Origin: Chrysomallon squamiferum
Lineage: Eukaryota > Animalia > Mollusca
NCBI GenBank assembly: GCA_012295275.1
Contig: CM022671.1
Location: 15,996,001 to 16,060,000 of the forward strand
Direction: 5' to 3'
Length of the DNA: 64,000 nt
The translations under genes were made by a program, and so were the position numbers. Shown piece after piece: positions 958 to 63,701 of this stretch (the first letter of the stretch is position 1; every line of letters begins with the position of its first letter). The notes beneath the pieces were generated by a model, which did no database searches, was not told where the DNA came from, and saw nothing but the letters and a program-made list of their open reading frames with translations.

Positions 958-3900
958 ATGTCCCAGAGCCAGCGACAGTCAGTATCAGCAGATGGAAAAC
1001 GCATAATTGGAGTGGCTATAGATGGAAGTAAAGAATCAGAATCGGCATTTCAACGTAAGTATTAGTATATGGATCAATGAAGGGGGAAATAAGAAGTAAA
1101 TCGTTGAGAATGCTTCGCTTTGCGTTGATTGTAACTTCTATAACTTCGTTGATTTGTAAGACTTTAAGTAAATGAATAATTTCATGCTGTTATGGAATCT
1201 GTACACCACTCATACCCTTGTTCATAACAAAAAGAAGAAGAAGAAAAAAAACTTTTGAAGTATTCAATTAGCACTTTCAGAGTTTCGGTCTTGTCGGCTG
1301 AAGTACTACTCAACATTAGTCTGATTTGTTGTTCTGCTGCTAGTGCATGTATATAAAAATGTCATAACATTTTTTGAAGTTGACCTTCGCATGTTAAATT
1401 GTTAAAATGTTTCCTGAAAACAGTGATATTTTTTAACTTGTGTTGATTCAAATAATTCCTCCTTTATTAAAACGCAGAAATATCTAGGAAAAAAAAAAAA
1501 AAAAAAAAAAAATTGTATTAACTTGGCCAAACTTTCAGTTCCATTAAACAAATAACAAAATGATACCAAGATGATGAAAAAAACCCATTAATAAATAAGG
1601 AAATTATGGATATTTAATTACATTAAAAATTTTTTTTTTTTTTCCCTGTTATTTTAGCCTTTAATTTATCTAACCTCTGGAATTTAGCAATGACAGAATC
1701 TTATCCCTACATCTTATTAAGAAAACACTGATAAATAATTATGCTGAACTGACAAACAAACCTGCATTTTGAGGTACAATAACAATCAGGGAAAAAAAGA
1801 CATCACCAAAATTCTGGTTTGTAAAATACCTAAAAATATAAGCAAACTACAATTACAACAACAAAATAGTTGAATAGAAATTAGAAAAAATATAATGTTA
1901 AAAACTTTGCATTTAAATGTAAAATTTGATACACTCCATTGTTTAATTTATAGATGAAAATATAATTTCAGCACTTACAGGGATGAGTTTAAATTTTTTT
2001 TAATAATCTCCCAATTAACTGTCTGCATCAGAAGAAAGAGCATGGAAATAATATGATAGTTTTACATTCTGAAAATTCCTCTAATTTTGATCTGTTGTTT
2101 CAAGCTTTATCGAAACAAAAACTCTAATCAAAGTTTGTTAAATTCTGTTATTCTGACATCCCCCTCAAAAAGCAAGATAACTTAGCTTTAGAAGTAAAAG
2201 GTACTCACAGTTTTATTTATTTATTTTTATTTTTTGTCTGTATGAGTTTTTGGGGGGAATTTTCATAAGAAAATTAGCAAAAAGAAAATAGCAATATGAA
2301 AATAAAAAGGTTTTTAGACCAGAAATTTAAAAAAATCACATATAAACACAGAAAATCTACTATACAAGTTTTGGAGGCGATGCATGTCATTTGAATAAAA
2401 CCACTAATACAGACATTTTAAACTTAGGTAATAGCGAATAATACGATGTTGTCATGTACCTAACTTCATTATTAATGAGAAGAAAAGAGATTATTAATTT
2501 GATTAGGCAAGGACAGTTTTATATAAGCTTTTTGTATAAGAACAAATTGTAGTGACATGTTTAAATAAAACCTCTTGTTGCACAGCAGATGACATTTCTT
2601 TATTAGTAGCAATTATTTTAAAGTAGAGCATATATGCGTGAGTTTTTAGGTGAAATACAATGGACAGATTTTGAAAAATTAAAGAAAATTTTCGTGGTCT
2701 TTTAAATATTGGCACAATTAATACTTAATTATGAAGATGAGTCGGTAGAGGTATTCTTCAAAATAGCAACTAATTAAAATTTAAGTATTTGTTTTAGTTT
2801 TGTAGTTCATGAAATACAGTTTGATCATAATTTATATTCTTATAAAAATATTAGAAAAATAGGACCTTACAGATATTAAATTTACCTAAAACTGAAATAC
2901 ATTTACATGTGATTAAAAAGGTCCATCATGTCTTCTATATATTTGTAACAGTTAGTGCAAAGCAGTTATGCATTAGTTGGATGTTTCTGTGTTTAAATTA
3001 TGACTAACAAAATTTTATATTGATTTGTTTTGTTATTTTTAAACTGCTATAGCCAGAACTAATTAGTTCTTACATGGAAATTAAATATTAATTATGGATT
3101 GCTTATTGTACATTTTTGTTTGCTGTGGTTGTTTTGTTTGTTTTACTTCTAGTTTCCTCATCTGTATCATTTAACAAGAATGTTTATTTATTGTAAACAT
3201 CAATGGCCTTAGGTCACTTCAGAAATCCCTTTGTAAACACTACTGTCAACAACATATTTATGGCTTTCAACCTTTATTTATTTTTTCTTATTTTTTTCTT
3301 CTTTAGTATGAAAATGATATCCTGAGGTTTGTTGACTCATGGCCTTAGCCATGAAATTAACTGTAGTTTTTCTTGTGATTCAGTTTTTTAAATCCACTTC
3401 AACTTAATCCAGTGTTTTTAATGATCTTAATGAATTATTTCAAACAACATTGAATGTCTGACATTATGCATGGCAGTGTTTATGAGTCATATGTTGGGAC
3501 ATTTAATTGTTTTGTTTTTTCCACAGCTGATTACGATAGATGTAGATTTTTCAGTAGAGGGAGGGTGTTGTCAACTATACCATCTGGATCTGGATATCTA
3601 AACTGAACCCATATTTTAACACGTTTTATTGCATCTTTTTCATTCCTGTCGTTTATACCTCTCTGTAAGAAATAATCTACCCATGTGACCTACATTTGTG
3701 ATGATTGCTCATTCGGGATAACCAAGGTAATCTATCTGTACTGTCCGATGACTGCAGCTGACATTGCTAGAGAGTGGTCAAGGACAGAGTGATACATTCA
3801 TAACATTGCTTTTGTCGCCCCACAGTTTAGCTTTATTTTTTAATATTAATTTTATGTTTTCTTCATTAATATAGAAACAGTAATAAACTTAATTAAATAA

Positions 3901-6490
3901 TTTCTTTAAACCTGATTACTTTTTCTATAACTATTTTATTTATTTATTTTAATAATGTTATTTTTATCCCTCCACTGAATAGAATTTACACAAATAAAAT
4001 TGGTAATATACACTGGACATAATTTAAAAATATATTCAACAAACACACTACATGCATACATACACAAATTTAATATTAGTGGAATTTTAAAACATCACTG
4101 ACTTTGAAATAATCGCCACAGTATAATCAGTAGAATCATGAACAACATATGACATTTTGATGTTACAATCATAAAAGTTTATTTATTATTTTTTCTCTTT
4201 TAGCATTTAAAGGAAGAAAAAAAATCCTGGTCCAGTTAATTTACTTTTCTGATAAAACAATGAAAACAGTAATATTATCACTGCTTTTGAAATAAATGAT
4301 AAATTAAACAATATTCCAGAATACATTTAAACATTCTTTTTTCTTCCCAGTAAGACATTGATATAAAAATATACACAGAAGGTAACACAGAGTTCATCAG
4401 AAAAATTAAGAGTTAATCCACTGTTTAGTTCAGGTTTGGTCATTTTAAAAACATTCAGCATTTATATATTATAAATGTCAGCATATACTTGCATTTAAAA
4501 CATTGATATATGAAACTAAGGAATTCATTTCAGATGTAAATGTGTTGAAAATAAAGATCATTTGTTTATTTTAAATATGTTTTTTCACCTGAAATCCTAG
4601 TTTAATAAATGGATGTTTATTTGGATTTGACAGGTAACATTTTCTTTTTTCGTTTTTTGTTTGGCTTCCCTCTAACTACATACAGCAAAGCAAGCACCTC
4701 AGGGCATTCTTTCATATTTTTTTATTTTTTGACAGTATCCCTTTGTTTTCTCTCCTAGCTGGAATGTTAGTACAATGTCTTCAGTGTACTTTATATGTAT
4801 AAATATTGCTACAGTGTCATAAGTGTATTTTGTATATTTAAATGCTATTACAATGTAATTAAAAAAAAAAAAAAAAAAAAAAATCATCAACAAATTTTAA
4901 ATAGTCTAGTCTTTTTTTTTCTTTTTTTTAAAAATTTATATGTACTTATTTATTCATTCATCCATTCTAAAAAAATATGTAAATTAAATAAATAAATAAT
5001 ATACTAATTAAAAAATACATATTTATTGTTTCTGATGCAGCAAATGCAATTTTAAATTTTGTTTTTTTGAGTGAATATATATTTTCCAGATGCAGGGTGT
5101 CCCAGAAGTCAAATGAAGATTTTTATTTAGATACAATTTTAGTGAAATATTTTTATAAAGAGAATTGATGTTTTTTTGAGCATTTGTTAATATAATAAAA
5201 TTTTCATATGTATCTAAATAAAAATCAGATATATATATATATTTTTATATAAATGATATTTTTTTTAAATGATTTGTAGCCACATACTAGTATAACATAT
5301 ATCTTGTGCATAGTAATAATATGTACTTTACATTTCAGATGCACTTGATCTAGTTTACAGGGAAGGCAAAGACTATATTCTTCTAATACACTGTTGTGAT
5401 TATCACATTTCTATTCCACTGCGTAAGTTGGACTGTCAGGTTTCTTTTTTCATTCTATTTGAGATGTTGTGTTTTTCAGACACGTTGGACTATATGTACA
5501 AGGAAGGAAGGGACTTCATAGTTTTAATCCATTGTTCTGAATACAATGTTGCACCTAGGATGCGTAAGTTCCAAATACCCTGACCATATAATTTCATGAA
5601 TCTCATCTATTATTTGTAGTGTCATAAATTTGTGGGGTTAATATATGTATGTATATATGTATAATATATATATATATATATATAAATTAATTATATTTTT
5701 TTTTGTCATTTTATAATATCCATCATGTTTACCTCATAATCCCGTATATCTATAAATTTCTGCATGCTTGGTAACCTTTCCCAATAAAACAATATTTATA
5801 TATAATTGCAGTATATTTAGTTACATATATTTGGATTAAAACATTGGTTTGTATTACATTTTCCTTCCTTTGACCAAGCAATTTTGTTTTAATTTGAAAT
5901 GCTTTATTTATTTAGTTTGCTTTTTATTCTTGCAGTTTATAATATCAAATGATGATCAACACACATTCACAACAAACCATAACCTGTGATAATACTGATA
6001 TGAGTAATGTTAACATTTACATGAAATGTTTGAAAACTTCACTGATGTTTCTGTGTAAATGTGAAATTTTAAAATTATTTTTGATTCAGCTGGACTGTTT
6101 CTGCACTTGCTACATTGTATATGTTCATATTTTGGTACATGCATGTGTGTTTCATCATTCATTGGTTGTGGGATTTCCTACAAGAGACAAAAAAGCTAAT
6201 TAAGAACTATTTTTTTTTCATTAGCTTTCTTGTCTGTAACTGTTTTAAATGAATTAATGATTAATAATTTTTGTGAATTAATGAACATACACTGTTCATA
6301 TTAATTTTATGGGAAAATTAACTTTATGACTTATTCATGCTTTATGTATGTAGCTGTTTAAAATATTTTAAAACATCTTGCAATTACAATTTTTTTTATT
6401 TAAAATTATTTCCTCATAGGAACAAAATAACAAAGAAAAGAGAGGCAGTTTAAATATTTAGTGTCATACATGAACTCATTAGAATATATT

Positions 6491-6541
<51 letters not shown>

Positions 6542-8100
6542 TTTATTAAAAATTACTTTACAATTTACACATTTCAATAGCAGTTAATTAGATAATTCTG
6601 AGCAGTATAAATAATATTAATACTAACTGGTTAAAGTTTCTTTAAATTGATGTTGTAACTAACAGACCATGTTATTTTGATTAAAAACTATTTTTACTTA
6701 CTTATTTGCTAACATCAACATGTATTTTTAAAATTAATTATTATTATTATTATTTTTTACAATATTGTATTATATTTTAAAACCAACAGTAAATGAAAAT
6801 GAAATAGAATGAACTAACTATAATTGAATTTAAATTGTTTTAATGTTAAAATGTAAATACGGCTGTGCTGACATTTTCTCTTCTTTTTTAAATATTTTGT
6901 TAAAATGACTTCAAAAAGCATAGTTATGGAAATTAATATAATATTCATGTATTTGTTACATTTGAAAACATGTGTTTTGTTGATTATGATGTATGATTAT
7001 GATGTAAAACCACAGGTAAGCAGAGATAATAATTGATTAAATGTTGTTAAGATTTTCAGGTAGATAAATTAAGTAACCAGTACAGCTTTTTTTTCTTCAG
7101 AAAAAAAAACAAACAAATAAATTATATTATTAGCATAAATTAAAATTAATTTGAAATGTATGCAAAAAATAATTACATATATTTGAATATTTATTTCAAA
7201 TTCTTCATTTGCAACTTAAATGTTCTTTTTAAAAAATCACAAGCAAAAAAAATTAAAAAATTAACTTAAAAAACAAAATACATTGTTTTAATTTAGCTGG
7301 AGCATTCTCCAATGTGGATGAAATATGTGCTCAGATGAAGAAGAAAGAGGATGAAATTCATGCATTGGTATCAAAATACACACAGATGCTTCGAGAGAGA
7401 GGTGTAAGTATTTTTTTTATGTTGTGTAGAAAAATCTTAAACCTGTCTGGAATTGTAACAAGTTTTCCACCTGTTAGGCCAAAACTGTCAGTGAAAGTAG
7501 ATAAATTCCAGATAGTGCATTTGTGATTGATTCATGAGCAGTATGAACTGATGTAGATTTTTATATTTCGTACCTTACAACTGAATAACTGAGCAGTCTA
7601 CTACTAATAGATCAGACTTTACAAAAATGAAAAAATGAAGCAAATATGACATCAGAAGAATGCCACTTAACTAAAAATGTTCTAATATGACAATAGACAT
7701 TCATTACTCAGTAGATACATTTTCAGTTTTAGTATTTTCTTACAACTCATTCCTGAGAGAGGTGTAACCTTTCAGTTTCCATTTTTCTACTGACAAAAGA
7801 CTAGACATGGTTTAAAAAACATTAACTGTCTCAGGTATTTTTTTTTTTTTTTTTAATCTTGTTTCTCCCTGCCACACTTGTGCATGAAGTTTCTAATATT
7901 TGTAGATTCCAGGCCGAGTTTACAAGTGTGGTGGAAAACCAGGAGAAGAAATCATCAAAGCATGTCAAAGTGAACGTGTTGCTGCACTGGTAATGGGTAC
8001 CAGGGGTCTTAGCACATTACGCCGCACCTTCCTGGGCAGTGTTAGTGAATACTGTGCACATCATACCAATATACCAATAACCATTGTTCCTATGAATTAA
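958..8100 (+). CDS. Universal stress protein (USP/UspA-like, ATP-binding type), 160 aa; exons 958-1054, [5339-5422 OR 5480-5563], 7297-7403, 7906-8100
   Basis: Spliced translation MSQSQRQSVSADGKRIIGVAIDGSKESESAFQ-HALDLVYREGKDYILLIHCCDYHISIPL-PGAFSNVDEICAQMKKKEDEIHALVSKYTQMLRERG-IPGRVYKCGGKPGEEIIKACQSERVAALVMGTRGLSTLRRTFLGSVSEYCAHHTNIPITIVPMN*. Has the USP hallmarks: beta1 'VAIDGS', beta2 'LIH', G-2x-G-9x-GS (GTRGLSTLRRTFLGS) and a terminal 'PITIVP'. All introns GT-AG, phases 1/1/0. Confidence 0.93.
5480..5563 (+). CDS. Alternative USP exon 2b (paralog of exon 2a at 5339-5422)
   Basis: ttttcag|AC...ATGC|gtaagt; 84 nt, phase 1-1. Encodes HTLDYMYKEGRDFIVLIHCSEYNVAPRM, 13/28 identical to exon 2a. 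No stops. Confidence 0.88.
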
Positions 8101-13661: not shown

Positions 13662-16600
13662 TCAGTTCACTAATATTCCATCAACAATGCGAATTTTCCC
13701 TCGATTTCCTGCTTTTCGACAACTCACAGAAACAACCTTCAAAAAGGAAATAGACATTTTATAGTAAAGTATGCTCTCAATACCACAATTATGTTAATTT
13801 TCTAAAAAATAAACAAAAAGTTTTGTATATAATAAGCAATTTCAAATCCTAACAATGGACTTTTCAAAGACCAAACATTATATTGATGAAAACAAATATA
13901 TTGATGACTCACTGTAGTAATAAAGTTAAACAGTTAATTTTCTTTTGTCTAAAAAGATCATCTGTTGATTTAAAAAATAATAAACATCAAAGTTCACAAG
14001 TGAAAAAAACCCTATTGATATTAGAATTTTTTGATCTTCCATTCTCAAATCCAAAAATCTAAGATTCATAGTATTCATATGTTTCATTTTACAAAAACAA
14101 AATACTGAATTTATTGAATAAAAATTTCACCATTTCTAACAACAAACCTTTTTGCCTGTCTGTTTCTGGAACAAGAAGTTTGGATTTCGAGTAGCAGCAT
14201 GAGCCAAAAATGATTCTCTGAATTCCTGAGCGGCTTGACTTTGAAAGATCAAACTCCGATCACGTTCACAATTTTTCTGAATTAAATAATAATTCTTTTA
14301 AATATCTTAAAATGATATACAGTAAATTTTATACACCAGTTGTTTTTTTTTACTGATAAAAAATTTAAATAACTGTATATTTAGAAGAAAACATTTTCTT
14401 AAAAAAACAAATTCTAGATTTTTTTTAGCCTAATTACCAATGAGCAAAAATTACAAAATATGTTTATATTCTTTTTTGTTATTTATTTATATGCAATAAC
14501 TTTAGTTAAAAATTTAAAATGTCATAAATTTTTATTTCAACATATGGATGGAAACTCTTTATCCTGGACATCAGAGTTCACACAGGTATAAAGATATTTA
14601 ATGTTTTAAGATACTGAACTGATAAAAGCTGCTTGTTAATGAATGTTTGTGGTGAACATTACAAAGTTCCTACCAAATCAGACAGTCGGTGTGTTTGATG
14701 ATAACCTTTGTCTGGGTCAAATGTATCAAGGTCTATAATCACTTGACCCAGAGATTCATTTCCATACTGGTGACTTTCATCAATTATGTGTAGAATTATG
14801 TATCTGGAAGAAAAAAATCACATATAAATAAATAAATTATAAAATTGCATAAAATACCCTATCTGTAAACCTTTACTATATAAAATTATATGTATTTAAA
14901 AATAATGTTTTAAAAATGTATTTAGACTTGAATGTAGCATAAATGTTTATGGTCTCAAATTATAATACAGTCTAAGACTAGTTTTAAAATGTGTATCCTG
15001 GATTAAAACTTGAAAAATGATTTAAATCAAAAGTATTGAAAATACTTCATTGTGTAGAATTTTTTTATTAGATATCATTCAGTATAAATCTCACCGAAAT
15101 GTTAATTCTTCCACTGGAACCAAAAATTCAAAAGTTTCGTGCCAAACTGGATCCAATGTGTTCTTCTTCACCTAAAGCAGTATTTTACCAAACTGAATGT
15201 TAGCAGGTAAATTAAGTTACATGCAGACCTTTTTAACTTAGTGTAATTATGTAGTAACCAATTAAACATATTAAAAATTTTAAAATCTACAATAAATTCA
15301 TCTTAGATATTTATTTATTATTATCACAAATTCTAATAAATAAAAATCATTTTCTAGATAAACACATTTTAAAATGAAATTTAGTTTCTATTAATGCTAA
15401 CTGTTTTTAAATAAATTTGTAATCTCATTGTATTAAATAGTTGCTATAATAATTTTAAAAAATCAATAGTTAACACATTTTATAACTTTCAGTACTATTT
15501 GGTTTAAATATTAAATTCATAATTGTATTTTTTTTTACTTATAATATTTACCTGTGTTCTGTGAAAACTCTGGTGCTTGAGACAGTATGTTTAACACATT
15601 TTAAGATTACTTTTGATTACAATGTCACTTGGTTTATATATAATTTGTATCTGTATTTGTTTTTGTGTTAAAATGTTTACCTGTGTTCTGTGAATGACTC
15701 CAGTGCCTGGAATGGTAAGTTTAACAAAGGGATCAGCTTTTATTTTGTTGTCTGGTGGAGACAGACCACTGGCACTCAGCACAGACACAAACAGGCGATT
15801 TGTTGATTCTTGAAAGGCAAGACTCACTTCTACTTCTCCACTAACACTCAGATCAGTCTAAATAAATTTAAATGTTTTAAAAATAACAAGCCCCTACTTA
15901 TAGAGAATAATAATACAAATGCACAAACACATACACACACCCAGAACAGACAGACATACAAGCACAATAATTATAAAGAAAATTCAAAGAATTACCTGAT
16001 TATGTTTTATTCTAAATTAGCTGTTCTACCTGTTGCATGTTTCAGTTAGGTAATAAACGTTGGCATATTTTTTTCTCACATATATTCTAATGTATGTTTG
16101 TCATTCATATTAAAAATATAGAAAAAGATTTCATAAATTTTCAAAGGTATGCATTTAGTCAGTGTTTTACAATTTTTTTTTATTTTATACCAGTAACAGT
16201 GTTCCTATCACTTGTTATGCTCAAAATCTTGATTCATATTTTATAATTAATGTTTTTCTTTTTCACCTATAAGCCACATTTAGTTTGATTGATATAAAAC
16301 AGTTTGTAAAATTACTGTCAAAGCTCATTTTTGACTGGTAAAATTTATTCTGTGCCTTTATTTAATTTATGCATTTAAACATTTAATCGTTCAGTAAATT
16401 AAACATTAAAAGTGCATGAAATGTTGTTAATGGCTTTCCATATTATTCTTGATACAGAATACCTTTAAACATGAAAATTTACATGAAACGTAGAATAGCG
16501 TCAAAATGTCATACCTGCATTCTAAGTGTGTACCAAGCAGTATGTACTGGGTTTTCCTTGAAGTTAAATGAATTCATGTTGACAATGACTTCTCCTAGAA

Positions 16601-17973
16601 AGTCATCATGACTTGTAACGTCATAGTCCCACACCTGAGCAATGAGTTTGGCGTCCATCAGTTCAAGTTCACTCAGAGTGAATGAAAATATTTCATTGTA
16701 GACAGGACTGTTAGTTTCAATAACTATCTGTGTTGTTCGACCTCCTTCTCCATGGGTGTCAGGGTACATTTCAAGCTGGAAATAAAAAAATAAAAATAAA
16801 AGAATGCTTTAATTAATAAAGATATGTTTAATATTTTTTGACAATCACCAGTATTAATTTACATTTTATATATGTAATACTTCCCAGGAATAAACCAAAA
16901 TGTGAGAGGAAATGACTTATGTAGTTTTGTACACTTTTCAAAACTTTGATGTGAATATCTTATAGGTGTGCACATACACAGACTCTTTCACACACACACA
17001 CACACACACAGCCAAAAATGTATAAAACATGTTGATTTAAAGTGAACATAAAAAGCAAATGAAACCATTTTTTCTATAAATTCTGTTTTAACTTGGTATT
17101 TATTCATGCCAGTATGATATTCCAGACTACTTATTTATTCAAATATCAACAAAGTGTAATATAGACTTATTTTTAATAGTAAATTAAATGGTAAATATAG
17201 ACAAAAATATTTTTGGAAAGATACTGAAAATTTGTAATACCTTGACATATGGATCTGAGGCTTTTGCTCTGATCTCTCTGTTTCTGAGGTCGTGACACTT
17301 CAACACTTTGACAAGAAGGAGATTTGATGATGAGTTGTACTTGAAAGATAACTGAATTTCACCATTGTTGTCTCCCATTGTTGATGTTACTGATGGGTCT
17401 AGTTGCTTAAAAACACTTTTCAACAGCTGCATACTTTGCTGTAAAATATAATTTAATATTTACAGAATTATTTAAATATGTAGGCGAAGCATTAAAAGAA
17501 TTAAACAGTTTTGCAGATAACTGAAAGACAATTCTGAGACTAATGTGATACAAAAATACTAACATTAATATTGTTTTGGTAAATCACTGTTTGCCTAAAT
17601 ACATGTATTGAGATTAATTTGTATGTTACAAATTTCATTTAATGTTTTTCTTACAAATACATATAATAACACTGAAAAAGGGATATAGCTGATTTGCAAT
17701 TATTTGTTTATAACAACAAAAATCTACCTTGGAGGATAATGTCATGGGAACACACAATGATATGTTACATCTCTGACTGTAATTTAGAATAAATATATAT
17801 ATTTGTCAAACCTTGTCTTGTTCATGTTGACTCCATTCAACAAGTTCACCAGTTTGTGTCTTCTCTTTTTCAGCCTGACTGTTAAGATACCTCGCTATTC
17901 TCAAAATCTTATCTGGGTCCTGTCTCAGTTTTCTTCCTTCTGGAGATATTTCATGTGACTGACTTAGACCCAT
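13662..17973 (-). CDS. Tandem C2-domain (synaptotagmin-like) protein without TM helix, 402 aa; coding exons 17973-17812, 17438-17241, 16775-16515, 15857-15681, 15171-15095, 14803-14674, 14276-14148, 13736-13662
   Basis: Starts MGLSQSHEISPEGRKL. C2A: GEIQLSFKY...LLVKVLKCHDL...SDPYVK...PVYNEIFSF...VWDYDVTSHDDFLGEV. C2B: GEVEVSLAF...ADPFVK...KKNTLDPVWHETFEF...SLGQVIIDL. Ends GKIRIVDGILVN*. Exons sum to 1209 nt in frame. The last acceptor is AAG. Confidence 0.88.
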
Positions 17974-19022: not shown

Positions 19023-24880
<5,858 letters not shown>

Positions 24881-29001: not shown

Positions 29002-33574
<4,573 letters not shown>

Positions 33575-34606: not shown

Positions 34607-36481
34607 ACCGACATAATTTAGTTATAAGGCGTAAAAGTATGCAATATTTTATATTGCTAATTTATAGTGACTATTAACGGTTATTCTGAATTGTAATGTT
34701 AGAAATAACAGTAAATCATTAAATTTAATTAAAAAGTAATGAATTCCTATTTTGCGACATTATTCAAAGCAGACATGCGTAGAACGACATAGTTACGGTT
34801 GTTATTGTAATCTAGCCTTTTGCGTTTTCGAGAACAGGAATTATTGATGAAGAGAAGAAAATGTTAACTCAACTTCCTAATTGGTGCAAGCAGACTGTGA
34901 TACGTAGAACATTGTAATCAATACACCCCAAGATTAAGGTGGCTATAAATATTTAATTTTTTGGATAATTACGATTACTTAAGCAAGATATATTGGTTAC
35001 AACCACTATCTAGTAGTAGTAGCATCAAGTTGATCAACCTTCGAATCAGTTTTCATTTCTTTCTCTTTATTTTATCGCTGTTTTATTAAAAAAAAATTAT
35101 TATTATTCCTGCAGATATTAAATTTAGATGTTAACAATTATTATTATTATTTTTTGTTTTGTTGATGTAGAATTAAACCAAATTAAGAAAAGTAATGCTA
35201 GGGGTGCTTAATTATGCATATGTTGAGCCAGTTAAGCAAAGGCATTGATTTATAAATGCTGTTCTGTTTGCCATTATTAGGATATTCTGCAATTATACTC
35301 ATATGAAACCATTTAAATGTTATTACATAAAGTATTAAGCAATGATAATAATAAAAAATAATTTAAAAAATTAAATAAAAGCATAATTACCTTTTTTTGT
35401 TAAGCACTACATCATTATTCATTCAGTTAAGTTCATTTTTAAAATTTGATGATACAGTAAATAAAATTTTCAAGCTTTATTTCATTATCAAAAACAACAA
35501 ACAACCCTCCCTTATGCAATTATTTATTAAACATGTGAGGTACAAAAAGTAAAAAGTAAAAGAGCCATTTAAAGTATAATGTATTGAACTGAAACATTTC
35601 AAGGGAAGAAAAATCTATAATACTTCATTATATAATGGAAAAAAACAAAACAACCCCCCCAAAAAAAAAAAAAAAAAAACCCAAAACAACAACAACAACA
35701 ACAAAAAAAACAACAATAATAATAATAATTTAAAAAATTCATTAGTTATTTTGTATCTTAATATTTAAAATAAAAATAGCTTTATAAACACTTTAAAGGG
35801 TTTGTGACATCTGTACATGGAGCAATAAAATAAACTTCTTTTTCCTAAAAGCTTATATATTCCATAATAATTCATAGTTACTAATAAAAATTCTTAGGTG
35901 GTGAAATATTAAATTATTAACAATTATGTTTACAATTCAAGTAATTATTATGTTTACAGATTTCTGAACGCATTGTAATTTTCTTTTTCTGCCTTGTATG
36001 TTGGTTTGGATGAAACAATATACACACCGACCAAAATATAATATATATCTACATGAAGGAACAGTGAAAAGATACACTGTTTTCCAATACAAACAACAAC
36101 AAACACAAACAACAACAACAACAACAATAACAACAAGTATAACAATAACAATAACAATAACAATAACAATCAACAACAACAACAACAACAACAACAATAA
36201 TAATAATTTAGTATATTGTCTAGTTAAATTAATATTTGTCATATTCTGTCCCATTCTGTAAAACAAATATACACTGTAATTCAGGAATACAGAGAAGGGA
36301 GGGTTGCCATTTAATGGAAATAAGTTTTTAAATCCTTTAATTATAGAAAATATAAATTGTTTTGAACAAAATCGTCTTTCAAATAAATTTATAATTATAA
36401 TGTTAATAACAAACAATGCCTGTTGAATTTCAGATATAATGTAAAGGTTTGGCACAAAAAAGAAATCAGCAAAATACGATA

Positions 36482-36734
36482 ATGAGTGATCAAGATCAAG
36501 ATGAAGATAAATTCTATTCAGGGTACACCCCTGCAATATCAGCACAACCACCGAAAATTATCAAGCAGGAAGAGAACCAGGTTGAAGTATCGGCTAGTCC
36601 AGCCTTTCAGTGCCTTGATGAGGTGATCAAAGACTCTTTGTTTATATCTATGTATTTACATCTATATATATATATATATATATCTAAACATCTATATATC
36701 TATGTCTGTATGTATATATCTATATATATATATA

Positions 36735-36793
<59 letters not shown>

Positions 36794-37362
36794 ATTTACG
36801 TTTTTAAAAATAGCAATTATATATTTTCTCTGAAAATTATCAGTGAGATGCTGGTCTAATGCAATAAATAAGGAAAATAAAATCATTCTTGAATGTAATA
36901 ATTTTAAAGCAGAATACAAAATAATATACTAGTATACTTATTGATCTTTAAATGTTTGAATCACACATGATAACTGAAATACATAAAATAAATCATAAAA
37001 ATAATATACTAGTATACTTGTTTATCTTGAATGTTTGAATCACATGTTAATTTCCACACTTAAAATAAATCATAAAAATAAATATGCTGGTATACTTATT
37101 TATCTTGAATGTTTGAAACACACAGGTATGATAATTTCCATACATAAATATAGCTCTTGTGTTCTGAGTCCTTTGAATGAGTGAATATTAAATTTTCTGC
37201 ATTTTTCTCATCTTATGTTAATCAATAATATACCTGAGGTCATTCTGTTGATCCTGTTTCTAAGGACATAAGTCCCCTGTGGTGCCATAAGAGTTAAATG
37301 ATAATAAAATTATTATGAAATAAATCAGAAAATTTTTTAGAAAACAACTCCAAAACAAACTG

Positions 37363-37399
<37 letters not shown>

Positions 37400-37799
37400 A
37401 AGAAAAGAAAAAAATGTTTCTCCCAAACATTCTTTAATATTATTATTATTGTTGTTGTTGTTTTATATATTCTTTTTTATTATTATTATTATCAATATTG
37501 AATTCAGTTTCAGATTCTATATATATTAATTCTTTTATTTTCAGTTATTTTCAGCAGGGAAACTGAGTGGAACAAAGGTCTCATTGTTAAAAGCAAAATA
37601 CACAGAACTGCATGAAACACTTAAAAGGTTTATGTCATATGAAAATTAAATATATTTATTATAATAACATTTATATATTAATAAATCTATTAAATTATTT
37701 TGAGAATGTTTCTAATAATGTATGCTGTCAGAATTCTTAAAGATTGATTTAATATCTTCTGACTTTTTTAACACATTCTTTAAGTTTTTATCTTCATTT

Positions 37800-37857
<58 letters not shown>

Positions 37858-40800
37858 ACTACTACTAATAATTAAAAATATTAATAAAGATAAGAAATAA
37901 AAGAAACTGAAACGTAATTTTCTAAGTTATTAAATATAACAAATATATATTCAGTGCTGTAATGCTGACATTTGTTCTGTGTCCCTAGCAACTTTTTAGC
38001 TTGAAACAGTTTTTCTCTAGCATAACATTAATAATATTGAATTTTCTTTTCATGTAATAATAACAGCTTAATTAATAAGATGTTTTTGTAAAATCTTTAG
38101 TTCTCGCGAAAATGAAGCCAAGCTCATCACTAATGCCAAAAATTTCACAAACACTCTGGAGAAACAAAGAGCTGAATTAGAGAAGGGAGATAATTTTCCT
38201 GAAAGTTACAATACTGAGGTGTCCAAGCTGAGAGAGCAGTATCTGAAACACACGAATGAACTGGCTGAGGCTGAGGAGAGGCAATATCAACTAGCCTATA
38301 AAATAGAATGGTAACACACTGGTTTTTATTTAGTTAAACTAGCTCTTTATATAAAAATGTTCATTTTGAAAGTTTAGTCTAATGTTTCTTTAATATAATT
38401 AATTTGTTATTATTTTTTTTTGTAAAAGTCTATCATTTCTGATATTTCTAAGTAAAATGAGATATTTAAGTGTTGTTGTATCCTTATATGATTATTCTTT
38501 TTAATGACTTCTTCTTTATAACCATATGAGATATTTTTCTCATTCTAATACTGTTGACATCATATTTTTTTACCAGTTTAACTGAAGAAAAGAAACTTCT
38601 GGAAAAGGAATATGCCCGAATGCCAAATCAGACTGTAAGTGTGAAATAAATTACACAAAACATAAAACCATAATTTATAATTGATTTAAAAAGAAACTGG
38701 CAAAGTAATATCCATATGATAGGAATTTTACTATTTTATGATAAAATAGCTTTAAGATTTAAAAAATGGAAAATGAGAATAAAAATTAATTCTTTACAAC
38801 TGTCATTTCAAATACTAGAATATTTATATATACTTTTTTAAAACATTTTTCTAAAAAGTTTTGAAATGTTTTGCTTTTTAATAATAGCATTAGAGTAACA
38901 ATTATTAACTTGGTAAATATTGTTAAAATTTATTAAATTACTGTATGTAATAATTCTACATTTAGATGTATTGTTTTATTTTGTATTGTTATAGAAAATA
39001 GAAAAAGAAATTAAAGACTTGCAGACTTCTTGTGATGAAATGAAAAAAGAAATTGCACAAAGAATTAATGAAGCCAAAAATCTGCGTGAAGACGTAGAGG
39101 TTGCCCAGAGACAGGTTTCTCTCGAAAACAAAGAATACGAACAAATTGCAACAAAAATAGAAGAGCTTAAGGTTAGTAAATACAAAAGAATATTATTATT
39201 TTTTATTTATTTCATAACCTTAAGACACATATGCTCATAATTTTCTAAAAGGTACACACACAACCCATATACATTTTGCACTGAAATACAATTCTTACTA
39301 CCAATTTAATTAATTTAAAAAATAAATATTTACTGGACACACTTGCATGATGTGCATATACCTATATGTGCCATTGTATATAATGTAAAATTATTTTTAT
39401 TTTCCTATATGTATTATTTTAAACATTAATATTCTTTTTTTTAGTTGATAATGTTGCTGTTTATCTAGCCAGTTTAGTTTCTAATGAAAACAAGTAAAAT
39501 ATACACATTGCTGAAATTTGTTATTTTAATTTCAGAATGAGTTGGCTCAGCTTAACATGGTTCCTGGACAAATAGCCAAAGAAGCTGACAAAATAGCACG
39601 AAAGAAAAAGTAAGAGACAATTTTCTGAATATGACAAAATATGGCTAAATTTATTTATTAAATTATTGACTTTCATTATATGGTAATTATTCAGCTTATT
39701 GATCTGTTAGTAAACCCCACCAAAAAAAAAAAAAAAAAAAAAACAATTCAACAGCAAAAAAAAAAAAAGGCATGTAGACAAAATGACAAGATAAAAAAAA
39801 AAAAAAAAGTTAAAAACAATCACCAAATCTAACATAAAATTAATCATGAACTCAACTGTAAGTACAAATATGAAAAATGTATGAAAATAAGTGTATTTGT
39901 GTCTACACTTGTGTTTTTAATAGTTAATTTTATTTTCAGTGATTTGGAAAATAAACTAAAACAGCTGAATTCACATCTTGAAACACTTCAAGAAGATGTT
40001 AAAATTCTTGAAGCAAAACACAGTCACCTCGACGAAGAAAAGTTCATGAATGATTCTGAACTCGACAGACAACGTGCGAAGTTAAACGAAAGTGAAAGAG
40101 AATTTGATTCTTTACTGAAGAGATTTGAAATGGAAAAAGATAGAGAAGCATCTTTAATGGCTGACAGGTAAGACTTACATTACACCAAAGTTATTTCTTT
40201 TCACTGTTAATAATGTATTAAGATTCCTTTCACTGCAGTATCCTCAGTTGTAGTTAAACAGATCTTTTGTTTTCTTGCTTTAGAAAAAGAAAGATGGTGT
40301 CAGTAATGTAATTATCAACATGACATGAGTTTTATAGAGAAACATCCCGTAGATCAACAACCCATATACCAAAATAAGCAAAAACAAAAATAAAATGCAT
40401 ACAAAATAATAAATGTGTTGTGAATATGGATTTCAAATATTTATTTTGGTCATTTTATTACTTATAATAATAAAACTTGTCATGGATATGTTTTTGGTAT
40501 TTATTTTTCACTGATCATGAACCACAATTTAAATGGATGCACATTTAAGAGTTTCAATAATTTATTCCCCTTTGGTAGATTTCTCAATTTTGTTTCCTGA
40601 ATAACTTGTACATTTTAAATTTTGTTAACAATTTTCACAGGGATGTAGCTCAACCGTTTCAGTTTTAAATCTTACATGTGATAGGTCACATGATCTCATA
40701 ATGCTTCTTTTTGAACCATAAGTGTACCATAACTATAGTAAAGTACCAATCTAAAAAACATAAAATAATTTCTATCATTGACTAATGTTAGCAATATCTT

Positions 40801-43800
40801 ATATTATTTTTGTTTCAGACATCAAATAACTATTTATAATAAAATGTGTACTAGTAAACAAATATTCAATTATTTCACAAACTACTATTTTTTTTTTTTT
40901 TTCAAATTTCTGTACTTCACTGTCTGAATTATTTTTATAACTGTCATTTATTTCACAGGGCTGGAGTGGATTTAAATTTGAGACACATTCACCTGGAGAA
41001 GAAAAATCAACATGATGTACTGTCAAGAAAAAGTCGAGAGAAAGACCGAGACATGCGTAACTTGAAGAAAGCTGAACTTCAGCTCAAAGTGGCTGAAGAA
41101 TCACTCAACCATACAAAGTCTATATATGATAAAATCAAATCACAGGTATGTTATATTTACTTTTAGTCAACTGTACAAAGTCTGTATATGATAAAATCAA
41201 ATTACAGGTATGTTATATTAACTCAATCATTCAAAGTCTATGTAAAGTAAAATCAAATCACATACATGTACTCTTGAAAAATAACAAATTTTGAATATTT
41301 ATTTTAAATTATCATATGGATATACATTTCTTAGGTTTGGTAATAAATAAACAGTTCATTGTGAAATGAGTCATATGTTGAAATAATAATATACAAGTAT
41401 TTTTCATAAACTGTATTTACTAGTTGAGAGAATAAATAATTTGTCTGATATTTAAAATGCTCAGTCTGTAAATACTTTTTGTTTCTGATTTCAGGTTGAT
41501 GGTTTGCCTAGAGATGATGGTACACTGGCAAAAAAGAAAGGAGATCTGCAAAGAGAAGTGGAACAAGCAAAAAGATCTTTAGCTCAGCAGGTAGATACAA
41601 CTTCATATTAGTTTGCCTGAGAAACAAGACAATTTAATTTCAAATTTTATTATTTTTTTTCACAAGTCTTGAACTTAATATTAAATGTAAAAATGAAAAT
41701 ATTTGATTTTTATTTGTTCTTAGTACAGTATCAAAGTTTCCAATTTGACATTCAGTGATTAATCTCAAAGGATCTGTGTAGGAACAGACATTTGCTGTCA
41801 AGGTCTAGATGTTACAAAAATCACAGTAAAAGTTAGATTAAATAAATTAGTGATATTAATATGAACAGTTTTTTTCAAAACTATAAAATTATTGTGTGCA
41901 AGAATAAGCAAGTGTGAATAATAGCTAACATGAAAACAAGATGTCTGCAACATGTTATATTTCTCTTTATTAATAATTTATGACTTTTTATCAAATATTT
42001 GATTATTTTCACAGCTTACAGATATCTAACAGCTGTAGAACTTGAATAATTTATGACTTTTTGTAAAATTTTGATATATCATTTTAATATAATATTTGAT
42101 TGTTTTCAATAGATTTCTGACAGAACATGATTTTCTCTTTAATTAATAAAACTTTATTACTTTTTATCAATTATCAATGTAATATTTGATTGTTTTCAGA
42201 CTTTACATTAATTAGACAGCTGTAAAAGAGGTTAAATGTCTCTTTAATTAATACAAATGTATGACTTTATTTCAATAATCAGTGTAATATTTGATTGTTT
42301 TCAGAACTCACTGACAGCTGTAGAACATGTGAAACTGGAGGCTAGTGCTGCTGATGAACAGAATCTGCTGTATCAACAAAGTGATCTGCGAATTGAAGTA
42401 GTGGAGCTTACTAGACTGGCAGCTATAAAGGTAAAATTATCTGGACATCTCAGTAACAAACAGTTCCTTTTTTTTTTTTTCAAAGAATATCACAGTATAA
42501 ATTTAAAATTTAAAATGATTCTTTCTTCCTAGTTAGGCACCACTTGAAAATTACAAAAAAGGAAAAAAATTTTAGTTGGGTAAATTTTAAACAAAATTTA
42601 AATAGAGGCAATTATCTATTATAATATTAAAATAGTTTTCAAAGATATTGTCCATTGCTTTTGTGTTTGAATTAATTATGTTATATTAACTTGTTGTTAT
42701 AATTTTTACATAGGCAGATGAAAGAGAGCAGAAGGCGAGAGATTTCATGCGAGCAGAGATGCGTTTTCATCGTGCTGTGGAAGATCTGAAAACAAAACAG
42801 CTACAAATAACTGATCATCAGAAGAAATATCATGAGATGCAGATAAAGTAAACATAGAGAATTTTAAACAACTTCTTTGCATCAGTAGCAGAAACTACAG
42901 ACAGTATTCTTAAAATTATTTTAATTAAACCAGTTGCATATATAAAATTGACAAATAATATTTTACCATTATTTTAATTAAATCTTTTGTAGAAAGAAAT
43001 AATTAATATTATTTACAGTTATTTTAATCAGTTTGTATAGATTAATAAAACCTACAGATAGTATTTTTAAAATTATTTTTTAGCCTTCTTTTTTTTCGTC
43101 TTTTAAACATTTACATACTATGTATTGTTTTAAGTTTTTTTGTAAAAATCGATAGATCATAGAAATAAGTCAAATACCATCCACTATATTCAAAGTTTTA
43201 TATTTATATATATATTATTGTTACATTAAAATTGTTTTAATATTAGAATTATAATTGCTTTTTAAATATCATTTGTTACTGTTTTGCCACATTAATACTG
43301 TAATAGGTAATACTGAAATATTAATTCTATTAAGAATTGCTTTACAAAATCATGTCTCATTGTTTTTACTAGATTGAAGGAGTTTGCCAAGCTGTATGAT
43401 GTGATCAAGAATGAAAGAAACAAATGTGTGAATCTAATTCAGACCAGCACCCAGAAAGCTGCCGAAATGAAAGAAAAAATAAAAATACTCCAGAATGAAA
43501 TTGAAATATTGAGAACATCGGTTATGCAGAAAGACAGGTTAATAGCATTTGAAAATATCTCAAATTGCACATTATATATTATTATATCAACTAGCTGAAA
43601 AAAGGTTAAAAGTTATTTTTTAAATTAAAAAATAATAAGAAAATTGAAATACATATTTAACAATTGTGAGTGAAACAAAAAGAAGCTAAAACTCACACAC
43701 ACACACACAGAGATACTTTCTAAAAAATTATTATTGGTAAAATTTTATATTGAAACAATTTAACATTTAATAAAAATTGTAGATATCTTTATCTTTTTTC

Positions 43801-46800
43801 ATTACTAAACTCCAAAACTAAAAAACAATTTCAAAAAATCTTTTCATTGATGTTTTTAAAACTGACTTCTCTCTCAACAAGATTATCTTAGAATCTATTA
43901 TTCTATCTTTTTTTAACTGTTACATGTTTTGTTCCAGACAACTTCAGAAGCATCGACTACGGCAGCGTGCCAGTATTGAGCTGCGAGACAGTTTGAGGAA
44001 GGAGGTGGCCAAGCAGCAGAGCATTGAAGAAAGCATGCGTGACAAGCGTGAACAGCAGAAAATGGACATTGCCAAGCTGAACCTGATGATAAACCAAGCA
44101 GAGGAACAGATGGTCAAACTGAGGAAGAGATATGAAGAGGCTGTCAAACACAGAAATAACAGGTGTTTGTCAGTGCTGAGTGGTGGATGTGTGGTTCAGG
44201 GTGTTCTGAGAATGCTGTTCACACTTATTTTTCTTGCCCACTCTTTGTCCCACAGTCTGCCTCCCATGTCATGTCATGTCATACAAGAAGCTTTAAAGTA
44301 TGCAGTGCTGTCTCAGAACTACTGTCATTATACTTCTTAATGTGACAGAAAAACTAGTTTCACCTGATGATACATGGTTATGTTATTGACTGAACTTAAT
44401 AGTTTTCTGTTTCTTCTTGGGTATGAAGCACTTGCAGAGCAAACTCAGAATATATAACCCTGGTGTTTTTTCACAAACAAGCAGATTGTTTATATATAAA
44501 ACCCGGTTTTATTTAAAATAAAATAATCTGAAGGTTTGTCAAAATCTGATAAAGAACTGAACAAATAAAATATTAATATTTGATTTATAATATACTCTGT
44601 TCAGTACTTTGACTTAAGATGTGAGTTAACAAACAGAATTCTCATTGAAACATACTGCATAAAATTAGCATATTATTATTATCTAAGTTAAAAGTATTTA
44701 AGAAAGTAAATTTTGTATGAAACATTTATATTTTATTCGGTCCATTTTTTATCTGATAAGTACTTATTAGATAATTTATATAAAATATTTCCAAACCTTC
44801 TTTTGCACCATGTTTTAATTTTATTAAAAAATATATTTCTTTTCTGCTTTTAGGGGCATTAAACTAATAGAAAGAAATGAAGAAGTGTGTATATTTTATG
44901 AAAAGGTCAACATACAAGGTGAGGAATGTTTTATACTCTTCATTATATTGTTTCTGAATGATAACCTTGAGAATGGTGTAGGAATGAAATTGACCTGTGT
45001 TCCGAATTCCAGACTAAAATTTTTTATATTTTTAAAGTTAATGTGAATTTACTTTAGATCAAATGGTAAGAACTGGAGAGGTTGAACTAAAGGGAAGAGA
45101 AGAAGAAATCAGATTTCTAGAACTGCAGTTGAATGAAGAGAAAAGAAATCTAGAACTTCTGAGAAAATCTTTGCCAAGTAAAAGAGCTTTTGAACAAGAG
45201 CTTGTCACACTACAGATTCAGGTGATTTGATATTATAAATAATAATTAATAGATAATATAATAATATAATGGTACTACAGCAATATAATATTTGCTATAC
45301 TATTTTAAAAAGTACCAAAAATTAAGTTATAGCTAATATAATGTTTTCTATTACAGATCATAAGTTATAAATCTGAAATATTACTAAGCAAATAATTCAT
45401 AATCCTATAAAATAATAGACAATGTTAGACAATATAATATTTTTCTATAACTGGAAGACTGACACTCACGTTTTTCTTTTTCAAATGATTTAATTTTGCA
45501 GCTTCAACAATGTCAAGACCGAATGCTGGATCTGGAGAAAAATCTAGAGAATCCTTACGATGAAACAAGAGTTCGCTATCTTGAGGGGAAAGACCCTTCA
45601 CTATCAGAAATACAGAACAAAGTGGAAGATGTAAGTAATATTAGTAATATTTTCTTGTAGTTGTAGCAGATTTTGACATATTTATCGAAGCAGGAGTCAC
45701 TATAAACATGGAATTATAATGGAAAATTTTATATATTTAATATAATGTTATTTTGCGTACCAAATAAATAATTATTTTATTATCTGAACAAACTATTTCA
45801 TCTGTCATTTTAATAGAAGTGTCTAATATCATCAGTTATCGCATAGAAAGGACCTGAAGTTTTCTAAGATTGTTTTTGTATCTGGAACAGTGAAGTATTA
45901 TAATATTAAATGTGTTATTGTTGAAAATCTACAGTGTGAAGAAAACAGAGACTTTAATCTGAAATTTCTTTTTTTTTCAGCTTGAGATGCGTCTTGCAGA
46001 GAAAGAGGAACAACTTTTGGAGAAGGATCTCATCTTCGAGCAGGTACAGAGAATGGCTGATCGAATACGACACAAAGCTGAAGTTGGCAAAGAAGATACG
46101 TTAGAACTGGCCAAGAAAGTAAGTGTTAAAACATGTGTTTGTATATCTCACCAGATTAATGTATTTATAAACCTGATATTTTAAATAAGAAGATATCCAT
46201 GCTATTAATCATATGTCATGGCTAAAAACTCATATATAAATCAATTATATTTTCTTCTACTTTTAACGTTAAAAGATCAGAAATTAATTTGTATGTTAAA
46301 TAAGACTAATTATGACAATGTACTTGTTTGTTTTTTTTAAATTGTTTTTAAACCATAAGTGCCTGCTCATTCTGTTTTGTGCGTCTAGCTAAATAACAGA
46401 TTAGTAAATATAATTATACAATTGTATTAAATACTACAGCTGAATGATGTCCAAGCAAAAAAAAATCAAATAGACCACTGGGATTTGCCTCCTCAGTCTG
46501 TCTCCTTTGTATGTGTAGCTAAAAAAAAAAGATTTATAAATAAACACAAATATAACACTGTATTAAAATATTACAGGTTAATGACGTCCAGGCAAAAATC
46601 AAAGAGACCACTCGCAAGATGATGGCCATAGTGTCAGAGCTGTCAATGAATCAGGCGAATGCGATGAAACTGCAGCAGGATCTGAAGAGCCAGGAGTCGG
46701 TGCTAGAACAGTGTTACATCAGAATGGAGAAGGGAGAACCTCCTAGTGATGATATTTACAGAGACTGGCTGCGACACTGCAGAGAGGAAGAGAGGAAGGC

Positions 46801-55300: not shown

Positions 55301-55545
55301 TTGGGGTGAATAGAAGTAGAAGAAAGTGTTAAATATAATTATATATGTTTTAAATCGATATAAAACAGAATTAATATTTAACAACGGTTCAGAAGTATTA
55401 TTATTATTTTTTTGATCCCAGCTCTGCTATAAAATAATGCCGTAAACCTCACGTATAATTAAGTCCAAATGTCAAGCGGGTTATTTATTCTGTTTTCGTT
55501 TTAATGTACTTTATCTGAATAGAAATGTAAATTACTTTTTACAGG

Positions 55546-60857: not shown

Positions 60858-63701
<2,844 letters not shown>

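What the first reader, a model, noticed from the sequence alone, without database searches (positions are those of the whole stretch)
5339..5563. Putative mutually exclusive exon pair giving two isoforms of an animal universal stress protein
Seen: two adjacent exons, both 84 nt and phase 1-1, both ttcag|A...TGC|gtaagt, encoding HALDLVYREGKDYILLIHCCDYHISIPL and HTLDYMYKEGRDFIVLIHCSEYNVAPRM (13/28 identical, most other changes conservative, no stops or indels). The intron between them is 57 nt, whereas the shortest other intron I assembled here is about 138 nt. Known: very short donor-to-branchpoint spacing enforces mutual exclusion sterically, and this segment covers the end of helix 1, strand beta2 and the following loop, next to the adenine pocket in ATP-binding USPs. 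Inference: a maintained splice switch changing ligand or redox properties (CC vs CS). Animal USPs are barely characterised, and I know of no described mutually exclusive exon switch in them.
Basis: partly seen in the sequence, partly recalled or inferred. Interest (0 to 1): 0.8.

Follow-up and report, generated by a model that had tools for sequence, protein, structure and literature searches.

The report
Either-or exons in snail stress protein
A universal stress protein gene of a snail related to the vent snail Gigantopelta aegis carries two copies of one exon; RNA shows each copy spliced in alone and Gigantopelta's annotation holds the same pair, so the gene makes two versions of the protein that likely differ at a surface patch rather than in the nucleotide pocket.

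Summary
Confirmed. Exons A (5339-5422) and B (5480-5563) are 84-nt, phase 1-1 duplicates in a four-exon USP gene. RNA contigs from four runs of one study show exon1-B-exon3 in 4 of 4 and exon1-A-exon3 in 2 of 4, with no A-B joint and no cover on the 57-nt intron. Gigantopelta aegis RefSeq holds both isoform types, A pairing with A and B with B, so the pair predates that split. Both exons share a one-codon insertion absent from 267 of 268 other USPs, and Haliotis and Patella orthologues show one segment, so the duplication is likely lineage-restricted. Frameshift/NMD and U12 incompatibility are excluded; steric blocking by the short intron (other introns here 138 nt or more) is likely but unshown. 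The CC/CS redox idea fails: Gigantopelta has CS/CG. The ATP motif is constitutive and the adenine-positioning residue is the same in all four exons; differences fall in the helix1-beta2 patch (dimer interface in plant USP 2GM3) and the mobile loop after beta2. A new member of a well-known splicing class; I found no USP case described.

The parts
958..1054 (+). Coding part of exon 1 (ATG to phase-1 donor): beta1 with Asp22 and most of helix 1. RNA contigs reach at least 176 nt upstream of the junction, so the exon starts at or before about 879.
1055..5338 (+). Intron 1 (4284 nt to exon A; 4425 nt to exon B), GT-AG
5339..5422 (+). Exon 2A, 84 nt, phase 1-1, residues 33-60; the more derived copy (Asp53, Leu60)
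   Evidence: RNA contigs in X2 and X3; orthologous to G. aegis isoforms X1/X3
5423..5479 (+). 57-nt intervening intron, GTAAGT...CAG; its only YTNAY branch-like motif has the A 30 nt from the donor and 27 nt before the acceptor; open in frame
   Evidence: no depth and no A-B joint in 4 of 4 runs
5480..5563 (+). Exon 2B, 84 nt, phase 1-1, residues 33-60; the copy closer to the family profile (Glu53, Met60); synonymous variant at 5520 in two runs
   Evidence: RNA contigs in 4 of 4 runs; orthologous to G. aegis isoforms X2/X4
5564..7296 (+). Intron to exon 3 (1733 nt from B; 1874 nt from A)
7297..7403 (+). Exon 3, 107 nt: long helix 2
7906..8100 (+). Coding part of exon 4 to the stop: beta3-beta5 and the ATP-binding motif G127-x2-G130-x9-G140-S141 (about 7996-8040), shared by both isoforms
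   Evidence: (Pfam Usp 59.4 bits, cut-off 24)

Best explanation
A duplicated 84-nt exon of a snail USP gene is spliced in one copy at a time, giving two 160-residue isoforms; the 57-nt intron between the copies likely blocks their joining sterically, and the swap likely tunes a surface patch (dimer or partner contact, and the mobile loop at the pocket rim) while the nucleotide pocket is predicted to stay the same. Shown: both single-inclusion junction sets in RNA; no double inclusion in the contigs seen; both isoform types annotated in Gigantopelta aegis; frame and splice-site class cannot enforce exclusion. Inferred: the duplicated unit was the ancestral symmetric phase-1 exon (81 nt in locus L008) after a one-codon insertion; it doubled after the split from Haliotis and before the split from Gigantopelta; B kept the ancestral role and A diverged. 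My odds per step: real mutually exclusive pair 0.93; older than the Gigantopelta split 0.9; steric enforcement 0.6; isoforms differ functionally at the surface patch or loop 0.5.
For: RNA: exon1-B-exon3 in 4 of 4 runs, exon1-A-exon3 in 2 of 4, no joints, no intron cover. G. aegis XP_041349856/57/58/61 = two first exons x two segments, identical elsewhere. Cross-species identity A-A 16/27, B-B 19/27, other pairings 12-14/27; exon tree A+A 98/91*, B+B 93/84. A vs B: pS 0.83 (saturated), pN 0.31. Insertion absent from 52 of 52 nearest and 267 of 268 wider USPs; single 81-nt phase 1-1 exon in L008. Double inclusion and skipping are both in frame without a stop, and all donors are GTAAGT. 57 nt vs 138-1808 nt for 29 other introns; branch-like A at nt 30, under the ~50-nt threshold quoted in PMC5740500 and PMC7969005 (passages). 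Segment = end of helix 1, beta2, low-confidence loop; it aligns with 5 of the 10 dimer-interface residues named for plant USP 2GM3 and with its disordered loop 56-65.
Against: RNA is from one study, as assembled contigs that drop rare forms; the A contigs carry flanks of 29 and 27 letters, just under the tool's 31-letter rule for bridging; skipping was not testable on the stretch laid. A species-wise pairing of the exons is not rejected (p-AU 0.086 and 0.084). The steric threshold comes from vertebrates; C. elegans splices introns from about 40 nt (PMC4165533), the minimum in this snail is unknown, the branch point is not mapped and the G. aegis intron length could not be seen. Only two sites (53, 60) are fixed differences between A and B in both species, and Asp at site 53 occurs in 25 of 268 wider USPs. 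No function or regulation was tested.
Confidence: 0.6

Rival explanations
1. The pair is real but exon A is a tolerated, nearly redundant copy under relaxed constraint; the short intron merely makes the duplication harmless and the isoforms do the same job.
For: A is seen in only 2 of 4 runs, scores lower against the family profile (13.2 and 10.7 bits vs 29.4 and 26.7 for B) and is less conserved than the downstream exons (16/27 vs 83/100, p=0.016; B 19/27, p=0.17). Few fixed A/B differences.
Against: A has kept length, frame, splice sites and the D, Y, G, D, I, L, I, H, C core in two species, with saturated synonymous sites against B. Exon 1 is as divergent as A (17/27). Absence from contigs is no evidence of absence.
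Confidence: 0.25
2. Exclusion is enforced by splicing regulators or competing RNA pairings (docking site and selector) rather than by intron geometry.
For: Most human clusters are not steric (57 of 629, 9%; PMC5740500 passage). The 60 nt upstream of exon A paired with the flanking introns better than most shuffles (1 and 2 of 30 as good).
Against: Those duplexes are long and gappy, from 6 tests against simple shuffles; the 57-nt intron itself does no better than shuffles (10 and 21 of 30); the 25 longest of 572 inverted repeats are AT-rich or simple-sequence matches. The intron is far shorter than every other one measured. The choice between A and B still needs a regulator under either model.
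Confidence: 0.25
3. The swap changes nucleotide preference or redox behaviour.
For: The segment holds the end of beta2, which lines the adenine site in solved USPs (PMC3673472 section 15), and the Glu53 to Asp change two residues further on is shared by both A exons, where 52 of the 52 nearest proteins have Glu.
Against: CC/CS is not conserved (CS/CG in G. aegis). The aligned adenine-positioning residue is Cys in all four exons, contacts in 2GM3 are mainly main-chain, and the G-2x-G-9x-G-S motif is in constitutive exon 4.
Confidence: 0.13
4. The exons are independent cassettes; double inclusion, skipping or intron retention occur at levels that the assemblies dropped.
For: All three forms are in frame without a stop; contigs drop rare variants.
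Against: No joint or intron cover in 4 of 4 runs; none of the 4 G. aegis isoforms has both or neither; none of 329 proteins held has a tandem segment; either form would double or delete a core strand.
Confidence: 0.06
5. Assembly artefact, pseudoexon or a pair of alleles.
For: No DNA run was laid on the stretch.
Against: 57% nucleotide identity, both exons in spliced RNA, both in another species' annotation.
Confidence: 0.01

Closest known systems
Homologous mutually exclusive exons from tandem exon duplication (class surveyed in PMC7954323 and PMC5740500)
   Same: Equal length, same phase, homologous, one included at a time, mapped to one domain, fold kept, changes near a functional surface.
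   Different: Host family and lineage: the main text of PMC7954323 has no occurrence of 'universal stress', 'USP' or 'PF00582' (supplements and web resource not seen).
Sterically enforced pairs: alpha-tropomyosin exons 2/3 (exon numbers recalled), OGDH 4a/4b (PMC7969005), C. elegans egl-15, let-2, bet-2, gly-5, gly-6 (PMC4165533)
   Same: Donor-to-branch distance under about 50 nt; in the five worm clusters the exons are 3n long, so NMD cannot police them, as here.
   Different: Tropomyosin and OGDH use a distant branch point in a longer intron; the worm introns are under 40 nt. Here the whole intron is 57 nt and neither the branch point nor the species minimum is measured.
ATP-binding single-domain USPs MJ0577 (1MJH) and Arabidopsis At3g01520 (2GM3); Pfam PF00582
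   Same: Fold (VIA Z 16.6, rmsd 3.1 over 138 residues, and Z 15.9, rmsd 3.6 over 130; Foldseek E 3e-9 to 1MJH for the A model), intact G-2x-G-9x-G-S motif, mobile loop after beta2.
   Different: 20-26% identity; two splice isoforms of one gene; nucleotide binding and dimer formation not tested here.
Animal USP families of flatworms and Hydra (PMC5793430, passages)
   Same: Same Pfam family, diversified into many variants.
   Different: Those diversify by gene duplication and retrocopies and are mostly intronless ('splic' and 'isoform' occur 0 times); here the variant arises inside one four-exon gene.

Membership tests
Homologous mutually exclusive exons | Adjacent homologous exons of like length and phase with intact splice sites | tested here: met
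   84/84 nt, phase 1-1, 13/28 identical
Homologous mutually exclusive exons | Each exon is included alone between the same flanking exons | tested here: met
   B in 4 of 4 runs, A in 2 of 4 (A flanks 29 and 27 letters); both types in G. aegis RefSeq
Homologous mutually exclusive exons | Double inclusion absent or negligible | tested here: inconclusive
   No joint in 4 of 4 runs, but contigs drop rare forms and the runs are one study
Homologous mutually exclusive exons | Skipping of both exons absent or negligible | not tested
   The stretch laid did not include exons 1 and 3; none of 4 G. aegis isoforms skips both
Sterically enforced pair | Donor-to-branch-point distance under about 50 nt | tested here: inconclusive
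   Only YTNAY motif at nt 30 of a 57-nt intron; predicted, not mapped
Sterically enforced pair | Intron below the species' minimum spliceable size; lengthening it allows double inclusion | not testable with these tools
   29 other introns are 138 nt or more, but no genome is held and no minigene can be run
NMD-enforced pair | Double inclusion shifts the frame or adds a premature stop | tested here: not met
   In frame, no stop
U2/U12-incompatible pair | One flanking intron has U12-type sites | tested here: not met
   All four donors are GTAAGT, all acceptors YAG
Docking-site/selector pair | Conserved competing base pairings with covariation | tested here: inconclusive
   No convincing pairing in one species; no orthologous intron DNA
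Universal stress protein, PF00582 | Pfam Usp score above the gathering cut-off (24 bits) | tested here: met
   Window exon 4 alone 59.4; G. aegis isoforms 83.6 and 87.7
Universal stress protein, PF00582 | USP alpha/beta fold | tested here: met
   Models of the G. aegis isoforms as stand-ins, pLDDT 83.6/83.7; top matches are USPs
ATP-binding USP subgroup | G-2x-G-9x-G-(S/T) motif | tested here: met
   G127, G130, G140, S141 in exon 4 (motif as in PMC3673472 section 15)
ATP-binding USP subgroup | Measured nucleotide binding and beta5-beta5 dimer | not testable with these tools
   Needs biochemistry; the complex-prediction queue was full

The most novel reading that the evidence does not exclude
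A regulated splice switch, kept for tens of millions of years in the lineage of vent snails, that lets one USP gene make A/A, A/B and B/B dimers with different partner or nucleotide behaviour in different tissues or states (for example symbiont-bearing tissue versus other tissue). It would be the first described splice switch in an animal USP and a natural paired experiment on what these proteins do.
Probability: 0.2. Interest if true: 0.65.

Novelty: new member of a known kind. Interest (0 to 1): 0.42.

Why it matters
Animal USPs have little known biochemistry. Two natural isoforms that share the nucleotide pocket and differ in 15 of 28 residues of one module point to that module (helix1-beta2 patch and the loop after beta2) as the part that evolution tunes, and give a controlled pair for binding, oligomer and pull-down assays. 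The pair also adds a mollusc candidate for steric mutual exclusion and could bound the minimum intron size in gastropods. Its reach is limited: the splicing class is well known, the pair seems confined to one snail lineage, and both isoform types already sit, unremarked, in an automatic RefSeq annotation.

Tried and rejected
No genome is held for the window, so no genome-wide intron sizes. Search for orthologous genomic DNA in metagenome contigs gave 8 loci, none an orthologue with both exons; L008 gave only a distant single-exon state. Search for the same signature elsewhere: among 329 proteins held (246 with a segment hit) only the G. aegis set has the same C-terminus with a wholly different segment; two other pairs differ by one residue; Mya X1/X2 differ by an insertion elsewhere. 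This is weak evidence of absence: 22 clusters were expanded and only 120 of 1100 hits were listed. The G. aegis alternative first exon has no match in the window (best E 0.2). Contig depths (A 4.6 and 13.5; B 6.8, 9.2, 19.1, 29.4) cannot rank the exons and the lack of A in X1 and X4 is not evidence of a switch. A splice-site matrix from 27 local introns was too noisy to use; the A and B donors are the same 9-mer. RNA pairing tests gave nothing convincing. The two structure models have the same secondary structure but shared one set of aligned sequences, so they do not compare the isoforms independently. An A/B dimer prediction with ATP could not be run: the queue was full. Earlier findings of the scan: nothing returned. 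The 2011 paper on USP distribution in animals is not held.

Full report
Observation. The sequence is as described. The gene has coding exons at 958-1054, 5339-5422 (A) or 5480-5563 (B), 7297-7403 and 7906-8100, giving 160 residues with either middle exon. A and B are 84 nt, phase 1-1, have the same border letters, and are 13/28 identical as protein and 48/84 as DNA (by codon position 16, 21 and 11 of 28). Synonymous sites are saturated (pS 0.83) while pN is 0.31. Of 7 equal-length open pairs bounded by splice sites within 3 kb anywhere in the window, this one is 44% identical and the next 13%. Exon 4 alone passes the Pfam Usp cut-off (59.4 vs 24 bits).

RNA. Five public runs hold the stretch, four on record as RNA and from one study. 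I laid those four (4 of 5) on 5285-5630. All four have a contig that covers exactly 5480-5563 and goes on with the end of exon 1 before it and the start of exon 3 behind it; two (X2, X3) also have a contig that covers exactly 5339-5422 with the same two flanks. No joint is listed and the bins inside the 57-nt intron have no depth. Limits: these are assembled contigs, which show presence and drop rare forms; the A contigs carry flanks of 29 and 27 letters, under the tool's 31-letter rule for bridging (these lengths are what a 31-mer assembly bubble would give, since A and B share their first base and last three: my inference); depth cannot rank the exons; skipping of both exons could not be seen on this stretch.

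Conservation. The closest protein is from Gigantopelta aegis, whose cluster holds four RefSeq isoforms, XP_041349856/57/58/61. They are two first exons combined with two versions of exactly this segment and are identical elsewhere. Window A is 16/27 identical to one version and window B 19/27 to the other; the four other pairings give 12-14/27. On a tree of the segment (56 rows, 26 columns) A+A has 98/91*, B+B 93/84 and all four together 95/71; with 12 rows support is lower (69/84, 81/75, 59/58), and holding the window's A and B together is not rejected (p-AU 0.084 and 0.086). A tree of the constitutive part (54 rows) gives window + G. aegis 100/95*, then Haliotis asinina 99/87*, then Patella 99/93*, so the organism is likely a neomphaline, perhaps peltospirid, snail; I did not establish the species. 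For scale only: the two sequenced peltospirids are dated 66.3 Ma apart (PMC7736800, passages) or 116 Ma, 71-184 (PMC7895826, passages).

Origin. All four exons carry one extra residue after the conserved glycine of the helix1-beta2 loop, absent from 52 of 52 nearest proteins and 267 of 268 in a wider set. A distant animal USP gene in locus L008 has the same intron position after exon 1 and one 81-nt phase 1-1 exon at 3425-3505, with no second copy found in the remaining 2 kb. The orthologues of H. asinina and H. rubra carry no isoform label. So the ancestral symmetric exon likely gained a codon and then doubled, after the split from Haliotis and before the split from Gigantopelta; conversion between the copies or an unannotated exon in Haliotis would upset this dating. 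B scores nearer the family profile than A (29.4 and 26.7 vs 13.2 and 10.7 bits). A is less conserved than the downstream exons (16/27 vs 83/100, p=0.016; B p=0.17) and than the same segment in 4 control pairs of like divergence, picked from 10 (86/103, p=0.016), but exon 1 is as divergent (17/27).

How exclusion works. Double inclusion, skipping and even retention of the 57-nt intron are in frame without a stop, so NMD cannot enforce it; all donors are GTAAGT, so U2/U12 incompatibility is out. The intron is 57 nt against 138-1808 nt for 29 other introns assembled in the window (30 junctions tried, two approximate) and 502-4284 nt for the gene's other three; its only YTNAY motif puts the branch A 30 nt from the donor. 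Passages of PMC5740500 and PMC7969005 give about 50 nt as the steric limit and 57 of 629 human clusters as candidates; PMC4165533 (abstract, passages) describes five worm clusters with 3n exons and introns too short to excise, but also a worm minimum near 40 nt. Steric blocking is therefore my choice at about 0.6. RNA pairings: nothing convincing, not excluded. What chooses between A and B is unknown; their donors are identical.

What the swap does. Models of the two G. aegis isoforms, used as stand-ins, put the segment on the end of helix 1, beta2 and a low-confidence loop and match solved USPs best (1MJH Z 16.6, rmsd 3.1, 138 residues; 2GM3 Z 15.9, rmsd 3.6, 130). The ATP motif G127-x2-G130-x9-G140-S141 is in exon 4 and Asp22 in exon 1. 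Cys51, which aligns with the valine after the beta2 histidine in 1MJH and 2GM3, is by inference the position that PMC3673472 (section 15) names as positioning the adenine; it is the same in all four exons. Differences that hold in both species are Asp/Glu53 and Leu/Met60 strictly, and positions 38, 43, 45, 47, 55 and 58 loosely; Glu53 is in 52 of 52 nearest proteins but Asp occurs in 25 of 268 wider ones. In 2GM3 (PMC4624624, section 5 read whole) Ile38, Arg40, Asn42, Asp45 and Phe46, five of the ten named dimer-interface residues, and the disordered loop 56-65 align with this segment (the register at 45-47 is uncertain). I infer tuning of a dimer or partner surface and of the loop, in line with the general finding that such exons alter exposed residues near functional sites (PMC7954323, abstract and passages). 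This is untested; a dimer prediction could not be run because the queue was full.

Novelty. Searches of the held library: 'universal stress protein' with 'mutually exclusive exon', 4 papers, all on plants (listing only); with 'Gigantopelta', 0; with 'hydrothermal vent' and 'gastropod', 2, unrelated by title; with 'alternatively spliced', 'isoforms', 'invertebrate', 1 (listing only); two searches listed nothing on USP splicing. PMC5793430 and PMC8509486 (passages) have 0 occurrences of 'splic'; PMC7895826 has 0 of 'universal stress'. Subscription journals, supplements and exon databases were not seen and may list the pair. Both isoform types are already in RefSeq as automatic models.

Verdict. 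A real, expressed, conserved mutually exclusive exon pair in a snail USP: a new member of a known kind. Interest 0.42; 0.65 if it proves a regulated switch with distinct dimers or partners (probability 0.2).

Noticed in passing
window 5423-5479: The 57-nt intron is 19 codons without a stop, so retention of A + intron + B would give an open 207-residue frame; no RNA cover was seen.
   Followed up: partly
window 1054 + 5339/5480 (residue 33): The split codon gives His here and Tyr in G. aegis and H. asinina, where most other mollusc USPs aligned have Trp.
   Followed up: no
window 5520: A>T variant in runs X1 and X4, synonymous (Ile) in exon B.
   Followed up: yes
P0003, P0007 (G. aegis X1, X2): An alternative first exon replaces beta1 and most of helix 1; no match in the window. 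It may be a mis-modelled or non-productive start.
   Followed up: partly
P0227, P0233 (Patella caerulea SNE40_014028, 014029): The Patella orthologue appears as two genes with consecutive locus tags, a whole-gene duplication where this lineage duplicated one exon.
   Followed up: no
window 29640-33553, - strand: RuvB-like gene (Pfam TIP49), at least nine exons; holds the 138-nt intron 29735-29872.
   Followed up: partly
window about 20800-24880, + strand: Nine exons that read like Sec61 alpha (name recalled, not tested); used only for intron sizes.
   Followed up: partly
window about 14140-17460, - strand: Gene with C2 domains (Pfam PF00168), synaptotagmin-like by recall.
   Followed up: partly
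window about 36480-48180, + strand: Multi-exon coiled-coil gene, CCDC146-like by recall; no Pfam match above cut-off in the exons tested.
   Followed up: no
window 55531-56730, + strand: 399-residue open frame with no Pfam match.
   Followed up: no
window about 61360-63460, - strand: Exons of a likely single-pass membrane protein (extracellular part, hydrophobic stretch near 62350-62420, long cytoplasmic exon); no Pfam match.
   Followed up: no
L007 1288-1363 and L008 2478-2535, 3425-3505: Intron-containing animal USP genes inside metagenome assemblies, with the same phase-1 intron after exon 1.
   Followed up: partly
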